The notes below the pieces were generated by a model, which searched no databases, was not told the DNA's origin, and saw nothing but the letters and a program-made list of their open reading frames with translations. Positions 26,244 through 53,648 of a stretch of 64,000 nucleotides of DNA are shown in pieces (the stretch's first letter is position 1; each line of letters starts with the position of its first letter). The stretch is from the NCBI RefSeq assembly GCF_009914755.1, contig NC_060932.1; one strand, given 5' to 3'. Position numbers and translations under genes: made by a program. Source of the DNA: the human T2T-CHM13v2.0 reference genome, Homo sapiens.

Positions 26244-26549
26244 CAACATATACATTTTTAAGCCTTTGGGATAGTTTGTAATATTGGAAACAATGAAATC
26301 AGGACTCAAATTCTTTTTATTTATTTATCTATTTATTTTTTTTTATTATACTTTAAGTTTTAAGGTATATGTGCACAACGTGCAGGTTTGTTACATATGT
26401 ATACATATGCCATGTTGGTGTGCTGCACCCATTAACTCTTCATTTAGCATTAGGTATATCTCCTAATGCTATCCCTCCCCCCTTCCCCCACCCCACAACA
26501 GGCCCCGGTGTGTGATGTTCCCCTTCCTGTGTCCATGTATTCTCATTGT

Positions 26550-29500
26550 TCAATTCCCACCTATGAGTGAGAAGATGTGGTGTTTGGTTTTCTGCCCTTG
26601 CGATAGTTTGCTGAGAATGATGGTTTCTAGCTTCATCCATGTCCCTACGAAGGACATGAACTCATCATTTTTTATGGCTGCATAGTATTCCATGGTGTAT
26701 ATGTGCCACATTTTCTTAATCCAGTCTATCCTTGTTGGACATTTGGGTTGGTTCCAAGTCTTTGCTATTGTGAATAGTGCCGCAATAAACATACGTGTGC
26801 ATGTGTCTTTATAGCAGCATGTTTTATAATCCTTTGGGTATATACCCAGCAATGGGATGGCTGAGTCAAATGGTATTTCTAGTTCTAGATCCCTGAGGAA
26901 TCACCACACTGACTTCCACAATGGTGGAACTAGTTTACAGTCCCAGTAACAGTGTAAAACTATTCCTATTTCTCCACATCCTCTCCAGCACCTGTTGTTT
27001 CCTGACTTTTTAATGATTGCCATTCTAACTGGTGTGAGATGGTATCTCATTGTGCTTTTGATTTGCATTTCTCTGATGGCCAGTGATAATGAGCATTTTT
27101 TCATGTGTCTTTTGGCTGCATAAATGTCTTCTTTTGAGAAGTGTCTGTTCATATCCTTTGCCCACTTGTTGATGGGGTTGTTTTTTTCTTGTACATTTGT
27201 TTGAGTTCATTGTAGATTCTGGACATTAGCCCTTTGTCAGATGAGTAGATTGCAAAAATTGTCTCCCATTCTGTAGGTTGCCTGTTCACTCTGATGGTAG
27301 TTTCTTCTGCTGTGCAGAAGCACTTTAGTTCAATTAGATCCCATTTGTCAATTTTGGCTTTTGTTGCCATTGCTTTTGATGTTTTAGACATGAAGTGCTT
27401 GCCCATGCCTATGTCCTGAATGGTATTGCCTAGGTTTTCTTCTACGGTTTTTATGGTTTTAGGTCTAACATTTACGTCTTTAATCCATCTTGAATTAATT
27501 TTTGTATAAGATGTAAGGAAGGGATCCAGTTTCAGCTTTCTACATATGGCTAGCCAGTTTTCCCAGCACCATTTATTAAATAGGGAATCCTTTCCCCATT
27601 GCTTGTTTTTGTCAGGTTTGTCAAAGATCAGATGGTTGTAGATACGCGGCATTATTTCTGAGGGCTCTGTTCTGTTCCATTGGTCTACATCTCTGTTTTG
27701 GTACCAGTACCATGCTGTTTTGGTTACTGTAGCCTTGTAGTATAGTTTGAAGTCAGGTAGTGTGATGCCTCCAGCTTTGTTCTTTTGGCTTAGGATTGAC
27801 TTGGCAATGCGGGCTCTTTTTTGGTTCCATATGAACTTGAAAGTAGTTTTTTCCAATTCTGTGAAGAAAGTCATTGGTAGCTTGATGGGGATGGCATTGA
27901 ATCTATAAATTACCTTGAGCAGTGTGGCCATTTTCACGATATTGATTCTTCCTACCCATGAGCATGGAATGTTCTTCCATTTGTTTGTATCCTCTTTTAT
28001 TTCATTGAGCAGTGGTTTGTAGTTCTCCTTGAAGAAGTCCTTCACATACCTTGTAAGTTGGATTCCTAGGTATTTTATTCTCTTTGAAGCAATTGTGAAT
28101 GGGAGTTCAGTCATGACTTGGCTCTCTGTCTGTTATTGGTGTATAGGAATGCTTGTGATTTTTGCACATTGATTTTGTATCCTGAGACTTTGCTGAAGTT
28201 GCCTATCAGCTTAAGGAGATTTGGGGCTGAGAGGATGGGGTTTTCTAGATAGGCAATCATGTCATCTGGAAACAGGGACAATTTGACTTCCTCTTTTCCT
28301 ACTTGAATACCCTTTATTTCCTTCTCCTGCCTGATTGCCCTGGCCAGAACTTCCAACACTATGTTGTATAGGAGTGGTGAGAGAGGGCAACCCTGTCTTG
28401 TGCCAGTTTTCAAAGGGAATGCTTCCAGTTTTTGCCCATTCAGTATGATATTGGCTTTGGGTTTGTCATAGATAGCTCTTATTATTTTGAGATACGTCCT
28501 ATCAATACCTAATTTATTGAGAGTTTTTAGCATGAAGGGTTGTTGAATTTTGTTGAAGGCCTTTTCTGCATCTATTGAGATAGTCATGTGGTTTTTGTCG
28601 TTGGTTCTGTTTATATGCTGGATTACATTTATTGATTTGTGTATGTTGAACCACCCTTGCATCCCAGGGATGAAGCCCACTTGATCGTGGTGGATAAGCT
28701 TTTTGATGTGCTGCTGGATTCAGTTTGCCAGTATTTTATTGAGGATTTTTGCATTGATGTTCATCAGGAATATTGGTCCAAAATTCTCTTTTTTTGTTGT
28801 GTCTCTGCCAGGCTTTGGTATCAGGATGATGCTGGCCTCATAAAATGAGTTAGGGAGGATTCCCTCTTTTTCTATTGATTGGAATAGTTTCAGAAGGAAT
28901 GGTACCAGTTCCTCCTTGTACCTCTGGTAGAATTCGGCTGTGAATCCATCTGGTCCTGTACTTTTTTTCATTGATAAGCTATTAATTATTGCCTCAATTT
29001 CAGAGCCTGTTATTGGGCTATTCAGAGATTCAACTTCTTCCTGGTTTAGTCTTGGGAGGGTGTATGTGTTGAGGAATTTATCCATTTCTTCTAGATTTTC
29101 TAGTTTATTTGTGTAGAGGTGTTTATGGTATTCTCTGATGGTAGTTAGTATTTCTGTGGGATCGGTGGTGATATCCCCTTTATCATTTTTTATTACGTCT
29201 ATTTGATTCTTCTCTCTTTTCTTCTTTACTAGTCTTGCTAGTGGTCTATCAATTTTGTTGATCTTTTCAAAAAACCAGCTCCTGGATTCATTGATTTTTT
29301 GAAGGGTTTTTTGTGTCTCTATTTCCTTCAGTTCTTCTCTGATCTTAGTTATTTCTTGCCTTCTGCTAGCTTTTGAATGTGTTTGCTCTTGCTTCTCTAG
29401 TTCTTTTAATTGTGATGTTAGGGTGTCAATTTTAGATCTTGTCTTCTTTCTCTTGTGGGCATTTAGTGCTATAAATTTCCCTCTGCACACTGCTTTGAAT

Positions 29501-51611: not shown

Positions 51612-52629
51612 TTACAATTTGGCATGTTTTTGCAGTGGCTGGTACCGGTTGTTCCTTTGCATGTTCAGTGCTTCCTTCAGGAGCTCTTTTAGGGCAGGCC
51701 TGGTGGTGACAAAATCTCTCAGCGTTTGCTCATCTGTAAAGTATTTTATTTCTCCTTCACTTATGAAGCTTAGTTTGGCTTGATATGAAATTCTGAGTTG
51801 AAAATTCTTTTCTTTAAGAATGTTGAATATTGGCCCCCACTCTCTTCTGGCTTGTAGGGTTTCTGCCGAGAGATCTGCTGTTACTCTGATGGGCTTCCCT
51901 TTGTGGGTAACCCGACCTTTCTCTCTGGCTGCCCTTAACATTTATTCCTTCATTTCAACTTTGCTGAATCTGACAATTATGTGTCTTGGAGTTGCTCTTC
52001 TCGAGGAGTATCTTTGTGGTGTTCTCTGTATTTCCTGAATTTGAATATTGGCCTGCCTTGCTAGATTGGGGAAGTTCTCCTGGTTAATATCCTGCAGAGT
52101 GTTTTCCAACTTGGTTGCACTCTCCTCATCACTTTCAGGTACACCAATCAGACGTAGATTTGGTCTTTTCACATAGTCCCATATTTCTTGGAGGCTTTGT
52201 TTGTTTCTTTTTATTCTTTTTTTCTCTAAACTTCTCTTCTCACTTCATTTCATTCATTTGATCTTCCACCACTGATACCCTTTCTTCCAGTTGATCGAAT
52301 CGGCTACTGAGGCTTGTGCATTCGTCACGTAGTTCTCGTGCCATGGTTTTCAGCTCCATCAGGTCCTTTAAGGACTTCTCTGTATTGGTTATTCTAGTTA
52401 TCCATTCGTCTAATTTTTTTTCAAGGTTTTTAACTTCTTTGCCATGGGTTCGAACCTCCTCCTTTAGCTCAGAGTAGTTTGATCGTCTGAAGTCTTCTTC
52501 TCTCAACTCGTCAAAGTCATTCTCCATCCAGCTTTGTTCCATTGCTGGTGAGGAGCTGTGTTCCTTTGGAGGAGGAGAGGCGCTCTGATTTTTAGAGTTT
52601 CCAGTTTTTCTGCTCTGTTTTTTCCCCAT
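51612..52629 (-). pseudogene. L1 ORF1, disrupted
   Basis: Three ORF1p fragments separated by stops. Confidence 0.95.
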
Positions 52630-53648
52630 CTTTGTGGTTTTATCTACCTTTGGTGTTTGATAATGGTGACAAACAGATGGGGTTTTGGTGTGGATGTCCT
52701 TTCTGTTTGTTAGTTTTCCTTCTAACAGTCAGTACCCTCAGCTGCAGGTCTGTTGGAGTTTCCTGGAGGTCCACTCCAGACCCTGTTTGCCTGGGTATCC
52801 GCAGCAGAGGCTACAGAACAGTGGATATTGGTGAACAGCAAATGTTACTGCCTGATTGTTCCTTTGGAAGTTTTGTCTCAGAAGAGTACCCAGCTGTGTG
52901 AGGTGTCAGTCTGCCCCTACTGGGGGGTGCCTCCCAGTTAGGCTACTCGGGGGTCAGGGACCCACTTGAGGAGGCAGTCTGTCTTTTCTCAGATCTCCAG
53001 TTGCATGCTGGGAGAACCACTACTCTCTTCCAAGCTTTCAGACAGGGACATTTAAGTCTGCATAGGTTTCTGCTGCCTTTTATTTGGCTATGCCCTGCCC
53101 CCAGAGGTGGAGTCTATAGAGGCAGGCAGGCCTCCTTGAGCTGCGGTGGGCTTCACCCAGTTTGAGGTTCCTGGCCACTTTGTTTACCTACTCAAGCCTC
53201 GGCAACGGCACGGACCCCTCCCCTAGCCTCGCTGCCACCTTGCAGTTTGATCTCAGACTGCTGTGCTAGCAATGAGCGAGGCTCTGTGGGCATAGGACCC
53301 TCTGAGCCATGCGTGGGATATAATCTCCTGGTGTGCCATTTGCTAAGACCATTGGAAAAGTGCAGTATTAGGGTGGGAGTGACCTGGTTTTCCAGGTGCT
53401 GTCTGTCACCTCTTTCTTTGACTAGGAAAGGGAATTCCCTGACCCCTTGCACTTCCTGGGTGAGGCGATGCCTCACCCTGCTTCGGCTCATGCTTGATGT
53501 GCTCCACCCACTGTCCTGCACCCACTGTCTGACACTCCCCAGTGATATGAACCCGGTACCTCAGTTGGAAATGCAGAAATCACCCATCTTCTGTGTTGCT
53601 CACACTGGGAGCTGGAGACTGGAGCTGTTCCTATTTTGGCCATCTGCC

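What the first reader, a model, noticed from the sequence alone, without database searches (positions are those of the whole stretch)
26316..53648. Two separately inserted full-length L1s, 15 kb apart, share non-consensus substitutions along the whole 6 kb
Seen: L1 #1 and L1 #2 have different flanks and target sites, so this is not a segmental duplication. Both still carry the same unusual residues: [92 protein letters not shown], and ORF1 ATKLEN. They also share UTR variants (GGTGACAAACAG, GAGTTTCCTGG, CTGCATAGG, ACTCTTCATTT). DNA examples: TAGATCTTGTCTTC at 29433/50609 and CCCAGTAACAGTG at 26942/48111. Knowledge (consensus from memory): RKQERS, MAILPKV, GKDFMSKTP, HCWWDC, QNLLKLISNF. Several changes hit conserved residues, as expected from neutral decay rather than an active lineage. 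The elements differ at 3' positions I recall as subfamily-diagnostic (TTTAGCATT vs TTTAACATT; TCATCATTT vs TCATCCTTT), and each has private lesions. Inference: ancient multi-kb ectopic gene conversion between neighbours, or local copying of an already decayed element.
Basis: partly seen in the sequence, partly recalled or inferred. Interest (0 to 1): 0.8.

Follow-up and report, generated by a model that had tools for sequence, protein, structure and literature searches.

The report
Neighbouring L1 repeats homogenised by gene conversion
Two old, broken L1 retrotransposons that inserted separately 15 kb apart in an RP1 intron share about 34 mutations found together nowhere else in the genome, most likely because one copy overwrote most of the other by gene conversion, a known process with no sign of function here.

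Summary
W1 (window 26335-32469) and W2 (47505-53645) are full-length minus-strand L1s, each with its own target-site duplication, and nothing else around them is homologous. They share 34 substitutions carried by at most one of 12-18 other sampled copies. Control pairs share a median of 3.

Five variant groups (10 sites) were counted across the whole T2T genome. Each occurs in only 2-22 copies, and no third locus carries more than one group. A true subfamily variant used as a control occurs in 2,496 copies. The "minor subfamily" refutation therefore fails.

The shared changes look like neutral decay: 24 nonsynonymous to 3 synonymous, no shared indels, and shared stops only at CpG codons. They lie evenly from about nt 580 to the 3' end. 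The first ~580 nt show no exclusive kinship, and one 255-nt stretch is identical (P=0.0002).

An unrelated chr9 L1 pair, also 21 kb apart and with separate TSDs, carries a clean 2.1-kb conversion tract.

- **Best reading (0.62):** old, nearly whole-element ectopic gene conversion, followed by a later short tract.
- **Rival (0.22):** W2 is a retro-copy of its already decayed neighbour.

This is a known kind of process, of moderate interest. Ape and monkey orthologues would decide between the two readings.

The parts
26335..32469 (-). W1: full-length L1PA-type element, including the first 12 nt (GGGGTGGAGACA) that W2 lacks. Both ORFs are broken by private stops and five private deletions.
   Evidence: Pfam Transposase_22 and Tnp_22_dsRBD in its ORF1 piece
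26299..26334 (-). W1 degenerate A-rich tail (26315-26334), overlapping by one A the start of the 3' target-site duplication AAGAATTTGAGTCCTGA (26299-26315).
32470..32486 (-). W1 5' target-site duplication AAGAATTCAAGTCCTGA (15 of 17 nt match the 3' copy).
47505..53645 (-). W2: near-full-length L1PA-type element that starts at AGATGGCC. Its ORFs are broken by private stops, three insertions and one deletion.
   Evidence: Pfam RVT_1 and ORF1 domains; aligns to ORF2p 8uw3 residues 686-1157
47494..47504 (-). W2 3' target-site duplication (T)GGATGATTCA, directly after a 7-nt A run.
53758..53772 (-). W2 5' target-site duplication: AAAGTGGATGATTCA, against AAAATGGATGATTCA at the 3' end. The site fits a TTT/AAA L1 endonuclease site (the consensus is recalled).
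53646..53757 (-). 112 nt of Alu 3' part plus poly(A) plus GGC, lying inside W2's TSDs and fused to the L1 5' end. This is either a 5' transduction or a reverse-transcriptase template switch. The junction is unique in the genome.
   Evidence: junction 21-mer with up to 1 mismatch found once in the genome
29230..29484 (-). 255-nt stretch of W1 that is identical to W2 50406-50660. It contains the three-site cluster at 29441-29445 and is a candidate later, short conversion tract.
   Evidence: (P=0.0002 under uniform placement; median 9 differences there in the 91 pairs of the 14 full-length copies)
50406..50660 (-). The W2 counterpart of the 255-nt identical stretch.
31879..32469 (-). W1 5' UTR part with no exclusive W1-W2 sharing. 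It lies outside the inferred tract. The W2 counterpart is 53064-53645.
   Evidence: 0 strict shared events among 20 events; shared CpG decay 5 observed against 5.6 expected; W1 and W2 are not sisters in the tree of columns 0-593
46778..47057 (+). F3: a separate 5'-truncated L1 3' end that faces W2's 3' end. It is 89.6% identical to both elements, carries none of the shared variants, and is not part of the phenomenon.

Best explanation
W1 and W2 are two independent target-primed insertions of the same L1PA subfamily, on the same strand and 15 kb apart. After one of them had accumulated roughly a quarter of its present neutral decay, ectopic (interlocus) gene conversion copied about 5.5 kb of it onto the other. 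This may have been one long tract or several events while the copies were still about 99% alike. The copied region runs from about element nt 580 to within about 100 nt of the 3' end, so the donor's private mutations became shared. Both copies then decayed independently by about 2.5% each. A later short conversion left a 255-nt identical stretch.

Shown: independent insertion, exclusivity of the shared variants, their neutral character, their spread along the element, and the identical stretch. Inferred: that the transfer went DNA to DNA rather than through RNA, its direction, and its date. No function is implied. Both elements are dead and lie antisense in an RP1 intron.
For: 1. **Independent insertions.** The TSDs differ, W2 alone has the Alu-tail 5' junction, and there is no flank homology.
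2. **Exclusive sharing.** There are 34 strict shared sites against a median of 3 in all 91 pairs of the 14 full-length copies. The W1+W2 clade has support 1.000, with an internal branch of 0.009 against tips of 0.028 and 0.033.
3. **Genome-wide counts.** The three-site 29-mer occurs in 2 copies. Of 189 hits allowed up to 2 mismatches, 100 were listed; only the 2 exact hits, W1 and W2, carry all three variants, none of the 98 listed mismatched hits does, and 89 hits were not shown. One double variant occurs in 4 of 13,013 contexts, and the two extra loci carry none of the other 8-12 strict variants in the region they cover. Two further doubles occur in W1 and W2 plus 4 and plus 2 other loci among the listed hits (51 of 151 and 121 of 221 hits were not shown). 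No locus recurs across the lists. The control subfamily variant occurs in 2,496 copies.
4. **Neutral decay.** The ratio of nonsynonymous to synonymous changes is 24:3 for shared sites and 106:53 for private sites under the same filter. This rules out an active lineage under selection.
5. **Two shared ORF2 stops.** R550* and R1159* probably predate the split, which disfavours autonomous retro-copying.
6. **Heterogeneity.** The first ~593 alignment columns lack the relationship. The 255-nt identical stretch has P=0.0002.
7. **The process acts at this distance.** A chr9 pair 21 kb apart with separate TSDs has a 2.1-kb tract with 4 differences in the four 500-column bins spanning the tract (columns 1500-3500), inside otherwise normal divergence. 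It also has 15 strict shared sites outside the tract.
8. **Precedent.** Neighbouring Alus within about 10 kb are known to be homogenised (passages in PMC8230782, and PMC6598467).
Against: - Between column 593 and the 3' end the shared events are evenly interspersed with private ones (runs 47 against 52.3 +/- 3.5, P=0.10; longest shared-free run 20 against about 24 expected). That is what a single whole-element copy gives. It requires a tract of at least 5.5 kb, far longer than the usual few hundred bp to 1 kb for mammals (figure recalled), or many early tracts.
- The evidence that the first 580 nt are excluded is only moderate (about p=0.02-0.04), and a CpG-rich region is noisy.
- There are no shared indels and no shared non-CpG stops, so a still-intact common ancestor is not excluded.
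- The comparison sample is small (12-18 copies) and was chosen by similarity.
- Only 10 of the 34 strict sites were counted genome-wide.
- No orthologous sequence from another primate could be examined.
Confidence: 0.62

Rival explanations
1. Local retro-copy. W2 is a reverse-transcribed copy of W1's RNA, made after W1 had decayed for a few million years. It was probably mobilised in trans by another L1's proteins. The reverse transcriptase switched onto an Alu RNA at the 5' end, and the copy happened to land 15 kb from its parent.
For: - W2 has all the marks of target-primed reverse transcription: a TSD, an A run and an endonuclease-like site.
- The shared variants are spread evenly over about 5.5 kb, as a one-step copy predicts.
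- There are no shared indels or non-CpG stops.
- W1 keeps the complete 5' end that W2 lacks, so the direction W1 to W2 is possible.
- No other source with W2's 5' junction exists in the genome.
Against: - No local re-insertion preference is known for L1 (recalled). The chance of landing within 21 kb of the parent is about 1e-5 per insertion.
- Two shared CpG stops in ORF2, plus 24 nonsynonymous changes, suggest the parent was already defective. Trans-mobilisation of a defective L1 is rare (recalled: Wei et al. 2001).
- The first ~580 nt show no shared history.
- The 255-nt identical stretch needs a conversion event in any case.
- The chr9 pair shows that conversion alone produces this pattern.
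Confidence: 0.22
2. Two siblings of a lost source. W1 and W2 are separate offspring of one decayed, rarely mobilised source element that is absent from this genome. They landed 15 kb apart by chance.
For: - W2's Alu-tail 5' junction could be a 5' transduction from a source that is not W1.
- The shared variants are exclusive to the pair.
Against: - It needs two rare mobilisations of a defective element and also a coincidence of about 1e-5 in position.
- No third copy or source junction exists in a complete genome.
- The lack of sharing in the 5' 580 nt is unexplained.
Confidence: 0.05
3. Minor L1 subfamily or chance. The shared variants are markers of a small dispersed sub-lineage or parallel mutations, and the proximity is irrelevant.
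For: - About 18 of the 53 loosely shared sites are markers shared with L017, L024 and L025.
- A dispersed pair, L015 and L027, also shows 30 'strict' shared sites in this small sample.
- CGA-to-TGA stops recur in parallel: 10 of 14 copies carry the same ORF1 stop.
Against: - Genome-wide counts of the tested W1/W2 variants are 2-22 copies and no locus recurs. The L015/L027 variant occurs in 2,496 copies.
- Only 1 of the 34-35 strict shared sites is a CpG transition.
- Control pairs within the same subfamily share 3-9 sites.
Confidence: 0.04
4. Segmental or tandem DNA duplication of a block containing one L1.
For: The two elements have the same orientation and a spacing of about 21.17 kb.
Against: - Homology stops at the L1 ends.
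- Each element has its own TSD, and W2 alone has the Alu-tail junction.
Confidence: 0.01

Closest known systems
Homogenisation of neighbouring Alu elements by non-allelic gene conversion (Aleshin & Zhi 2010, seen only as cited in PMC8230782 and PMC6598467)
   Same: Independently inserted retroelements of one family that lie close together share non-diagnostic mutations. The rate is described as falling with distance and rising with identity.
   Different: The Alu effect is described as acting within about 10 kb on 300-bp elements. Here the copies are 6-kb L1s whose starts are 21 kb apart, and the shared region spans about 5.5 kb.
L1 gene conversion reports (Burton et al. [quoted passage not shown]
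   Same: Part or all of a pre-existing L1 is replaced by the sequence of another L1.
   Different: Those cases, as I recall them, involve young elements overwriting older ones at one locus. They were recognised by subfamily change across species, not by shared neutral decay between two dead neighbours.
The chr9 L1 pair found here (G000:C9:81580376-81586423 and 81601435-81607553; loci L009-L012)
   Same: Two same-strand, full-length L1s of the same general family, about 21 kb apart, with separate TSDs and exclusive shared variants (52 strict).
   Different: The chr9 pair has an obvious recent 2.1-kb tract with sharp edges. The W1/W2 sharing is older, more diffuse and nearly element-wide.
Chimeric retrocopies made by reverse-transcriptase template switching, and L1 5' transductions (Buzdin et al. 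2002/2003 and others; recalled)
   Same: W2's TSDs enclose a piece of another RNA (an Alu 3' part with its tail) joined to the L1 5' end.
   Different: This concerns only how W2 first inserted. It does not explain the variants shared with W1.

Membership tests
LINE-1 (L1PA-type) insertion by target-primed reverse transcription | ORF1 and ORF2 (reverse transcriptase) homology | tested here: met
   Pfam Transposase_22, Tnp_22_dsRBD and RVT_1 in ORF pieces of both elements. W2's 497-aa piece aligns to human ORF2p 8uw3 residues 686-1157 with E=2.9e-288.
LINE-1 (L1PA-type) insertion by target-primed reverse transcription | An own target-site duplication and a 3' A tail for each copy | tested here: met
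   W1 has 17-nt TSDs (15 of 17 nt match) and an A-rich tail. W2 has 10-11-nt perfect TSDs (15 nt with 1 mismatch) and an A7 run.
LINE-1 (L1PA-type) insertion by target-primed reverse transcription | Named subfamily (L1PA3-PA6) by diagnostic positions | not testable with these tools
   No reference consensus is held and none may be typed. Both elements group with L017, L024, L025 and L022 at shared markers. A depth of about 3.7-4.2% from the subfamily node fits L1PA4-5 only by recalled ages.
Interlocus (ectopic) gene conversion between dispersed repeats | The two copies arose independently | tested here: met
   The TSDs, 5' junctions and flanks all differ.
Interlocus (ectopic) gene conversion between dispersed repeats | The copies share derived states absent from other family members | tested here: met
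   34 strict shared sites against a median of 3. Genome-wide counts are 2-22 copies with no recurring locus, against 2,496 copies for a subfamily control.
Interlocus (ectopic) gene conversion between dispersed repeats | Mosaic structure: tract boundaries or stretches of excess identity | tested here: inconclusive
   For: a 255-nt identical stretch (P=0.0002) and a 5' 593-column region without the relationship. Against: even interspersion over the remaining 5.5 kb (runs test P=0.10).
Interlocus (ectopic) gene conversion between dispersed repeats | Orthologues in an outgroup show both copies present before homogenisation | not testable with these tools
   Only the window's own genome is held, and the tool states that it has no relatives.
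Parent-offspring retrotransposition (local retro-copy) | The shared history covers the whole transcript, including the 5' end | tested here: inconclusive
   No strict shared events among 20 events in the first 593 columns (p about 0.03), and the two are not sisters there. Power is low in this CpG-rich region.
Parent-offspring retrotransposition (local retro-copy) | The common ancestor was coding-competent | tested here: inconclusive
   There are no shared indels or non-CpG stops. However, two shared CpG stops are rare in the other copies (2 of 17 and 1 of 14), and 24 changes are nonsynonymous.
Dispersed minor L1 subfamily | The variants recur together in many unlinked copies | tested here: not met
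   against control
Segmental/tandem duplication | Homology continues into the flanks | tested here: not met

The most novel reading that the evidence does not exclude
W2 is a retro-copy of its already decayed neighbour W1. A dead L1 was transcribed, mobilised in trans, fused to an Alu RNA by template switching, and re-inserted only 15 kb from its parent. This would hint that L1 RNA can re-integrate near its own locus.
Probability: 0.2. Interest if true: 0.6.

Novelty: new member of a known kind. Interest (0 to 1): 0.38.

Why it matters
The finding gives a clean, quantified case that full-length L1s tens of kb apart do not always decay independently. A second case, on chr9, was found by accident among about 30 loci.

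If such conversion is common, three kinds of inference are biased for clustered elements: L1 ages taken from divergence, subfamily calls, and source-lineage trees. Shared 'private' mutations would then not prove common descent through RNA.

A tract of about 5.5 kb would also lie at the long end of mammalian ectopic conversion.

There is no sign of an effect on RP1 or of any function.

Tried and rejected
- **Full-length genome searches.** Searches with each full-length element scored only 31 of about 39,000-41,000 candidates. The neighbour itself was not among those scored, so these lists cannot rank relatives. Shorter queries and exact patterns were used instead.
- **chr8/chr9 paralogy.** The two top hits of a 601-nt query lie 21.0 kb apart on chr9, which suggested that the chr8 and chr9 loci were paralogous blocks. 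This was rejected because only the L1s match.
- **Loci L029 and L030.** They share one double variant, but they are short truncated fragments without any other shared variant.
- **Transversion excess.** The raw excess of transversions among shared sites disappeared once the same rarity filter was applied to private sites: 16:18 against 57:53 and 67:41.
- **Runs test.** The raw result (P=0.0008) was mostly due to adjacent multi-base changes. After collapsing those, P=0.10.
- **Editing signatures.** I looked through the shared-site list for an APOBEC-like (G>A) or ADAR-like (A>G) bias. Neither class dominates.
- **Fragment F3.** It was considered as a third partner and rejected.
- **Lineage-polymorphic sites.** W1 and W2 differ at sites 1266, 3327, 4350, 5928, 6094 and 6154. 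These could be unconverted patches or hotspots. I could not build a valid null, so they are not used.
- **Literature.** Searches found no paper in the held library that describes element-wide homogenisation of neighbouring L1s. Most subscription-journal papers are not held. No supplements were opened.

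
Full report
**Anatomy**

The window holds two full-length L1 elements on the minus strand. W1 homology spans 26335-32457 and W2 spans 47504-53645. They are 94.7% identical over 6143 columns with 11 gap openings. 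Both are riddled with stops. Their ORF pieces match the Pfam L1 ORF1 domains and RVT_1 and the solved human ORF2p 8uw3.

W1 has the complete 5' end (12 further nt, up to 32469), a degenerate A-rich tail, and 17-nt TSDs AAGAATT[CA/TG]AGTCCTGA at 32470-32486 and 26299-26315.

W2 ends in an A7 run. It is flanked by (T)GGATGATTCA at 47494-47504 and 53758-53768. Between its 5' TSD and the L1 start lie 112 nt of Alu 3' part, poly(A) and GGC. That junction occurs nowhere else in the genome.

The window self-comparison shows no other homology between the two neighbourhoods apart from Alus. The two elements are therefore separate target-primed insertions, not a segmental duplication.

**Is the sharing real?**

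The window's own genome could be searched. I fetched 18 further copies plus a chr9 locus and aligned 20 elements, 14 of them full-length.

W1 and W2 differ at 5.0% of sites. Every other full-length copy is 5.5-7.3% from either of them.

At 53 sites W1 equals W2 but differs from at least 70% of the other copies. At 34-35 of these sites at most one other copy has the shared state. Across all 91 pairs of the 14 full-length copies the same count has a median of 3 and a 90th percentile of 7. Pairs within the same subfamily give 3-9.

A FastTree phylogeny joins W1 and W2 with support 1.000. The internal branch is 0.009 and the tips are 0.028 and 0.033, so about 23% of their history is shared.

**Is it a dispersed sub-lineage?**

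Sample-based rarity is not enough. L015 (chr3) and L027 (chr12) also show 30 'strict' shared sites, simply because they are the only two sampled members of another subfamily. I therefore counted variants in the whole genome.

| Variant group | Copies genome-wide |
|---|---|
| Three-site cluster (29-mer) | W1 and W2 only |
| Double variant (30-mer) | 4 of 13,013 contexts |
| V15G single variant (25-mer) | 22 |
| I817T/P819L double | W1, W2, one exact match, three with one extra mismatch |
| W1144 double | W1, W2, one exact match, one with an extra mismatch |
| Control: one L015/L027 variant | 2,496 |

- **Three-site cluster with mismatches allowed.** With up to 2 mismatches it gives 189 hits, of which 100 were listed. 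Only the 2 exact hits, W1 and W2, have all three variants. None of the 98 listed mismatched hits does, and 89 hits were not shown.
- **Hits not shown for the two later doubles.** In one search, 51 of 151 hits were not shown. In one search, 121 of 221 hits were not shown.
- **The extra loci of the 30-mer double.** They are truncated fragments that carry none of the other strict variants in the region they cover.
- **Recurrence.** No locus recurs between the lists.
- **Short-segment search.** For a 271-nt segment, W2 is the best genome-wide hit of W1 (467 against 449 bits; 40 of 4,537 candidates scored). For a 601-nt segment it ranks fourth, level with near-pristine copies (994 against 999 bits).

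Ten of the 34 strict sites were tested in this way. The combination is exclusive to the pair.

**Character of the shared changes**

- There are no shared indels. All nine indels are private.
- The ratio of nonsynonymous to synonymous changes is 24:3 for shared sites and 106:53 for private sites under the same filter (Fisher p=0.022). There is no purifying selection, so these are not markers of an active lineage.
- Shared stops occur only at CGA codons. The ORF1 stop is present in 10 of 14 copies and is a parallel change. ORF2 R550* is found in 2 of 17 other copies and R1159* in 1 of 14, so at least one of these was probably already present in the common ancestor (this is inference).
- Transitions against transversions match the private sites once the same filter is applied.

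**Spread along the element**

After collapsing adjacent multi-base changes there are 30 shared and 177 private events. These are interspersed as expected by chance: 47 runs against 52.3 +/- 3.5 (P=0.10), and the longest shared-free run is 20 against about 24 expected.

Two departures remain.

1. The first 593 columns hold 0 shared events among 20 (about p=0.03). They show no excess of shared CpG decay (5 observed against 5.6 expected). W1 and W2 are not sisters in a tree of this part, whereas support is 1.000 for columns 593 to the end.
2. A 255-nt stretch, 29230-29484 = 50406-50660, is identical. P=0.0002 under uniform placement. Across the 91 pairs the median number of differences there is 9. 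The next longest identical stretch in any pair outside chr9 is 205.

**A positive control found by accident**

The two best hits lie 21.0 kb apart on chr9. Only the L1s match the window. The two chr9 elements have separate TSDs.

They share a tract of about 2.1 kb (alignment columns 1549-3684, broken by a single difference). The four 500-column bins covering columns 1500-3500 hold 4 differences in total. Outside the tract divergence is normal, 9-37 differences per 500 columns. The runs test gives 23 runs against 58.2 expected, P=0. This is a textbook conversion tract. The pair also has 15 strict shared sites outside the tract. Conversion therefore does act on same-strand L1s at this spacing.

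**Weighing the mechanisms**

A retro-copy of W1 explains the even spread in one step. However, it needs all of the following:
- a landing coincidence of about 1e-5 (no local preference is known; recalled);
- probable trans-mobilisation of a defective RNA;
- an extra conversion to explain the 255-nt stretch;
- chance to explain the unshared 5' 580 nt.

Gene conversion needs either a long tract of about 5.5 kb or several early tracts while the copies were still about 99% alike. It explains everything else and is shown to operate on a comparable pair. I put conversion at 0.62, the local retro-copy at 0.22, two siblings of a lost source at 0.05, subfamily or chance at 0.04 and duplication at 0.01.

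Using recalled L1PA4-5 ages of about 18-20 Myr (Khan et al. 2006, not seen here), the 23% shared branch puts the event at roughly 14-15 Myr ago. This date is inference only.

**Literature**

I saw passages only, found with the find function.
- PMC8230782 and PMC6598467 state that Alu conversion is elevated between neighbours within about 10 kb, citing Aleshin & Zhi 2010.
- PMC13192797 lists gene conversion among the processes that blur old L1 histories.
- PMC8232201 gives general remarks.
- PMC5640379's reference list cites Burton et al. 1991 on L1 gene conversion.

Searches found no paper in the held library on element-wide homogenisation of neighbouring L1s. Subscription journals are largely missing from that library.

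**Verdict**

The phenomenon is a well-documented instance of a known process, of moderate interest.

Noticed in passing
L009-L012 (G000:C9:81576001-81616000); elements at 81580376-81586423 and 81601435-81607553: A second pair of same-strand L1s, 21 kb apart and with separate TSDs. It carries a sharp ~2.1-kb near-identical tract (4 differences in the four 500-column bins over columns 1500-3500) inside otherwise 4-7% divergence. This is a clear, recent gene conversion.
   Followed up: partly
window 53646-53757: W2's TSDs enclose 112 nt of Alu 3' part, poly(A) and GGC fused to the L1 5' end. This is either a 5' transduction or a template-switch chimera. The junction is unique in the genome.
   Followed up: partly
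window 39244-39872: A tandem array with a 69-nt period. At least seven overlapping 215-nt registers are 99-100% identical in the core. It looks like a minisatellite in the stretch between the two L1s.
   Followed up: no
window 46778-47057: A short 5'-truncated L1 3' end on the plus strand, whose A tail points at W2's 3' end about 450 nt away. It is about 10% diverged and unrelated to the shared variants.
   Followed up: yes
ORF1 codon 130 (NEMK*EE) in the alignment; W1 and W2 plus loci L015, L017, L023-L028: The same CGA-to-TGA stop occurs in 10 of 14 full-length copies from different chromosomes. This is parallel CpG decay that could be mistaken for shared ancestry.
   Followed up: partly
L011-L012, 3' flank of the C9b element: About 55 nt of non-L1 sequence lie between the L1 3' end and its TSD AAAAATGTAGCATGGC. 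This may be a 3' transduction.
   Followed up: no
window 25631-26243: Two Alus in tandem, 87% alike, directly beside W1's 3' TSD.
   Followed up: no
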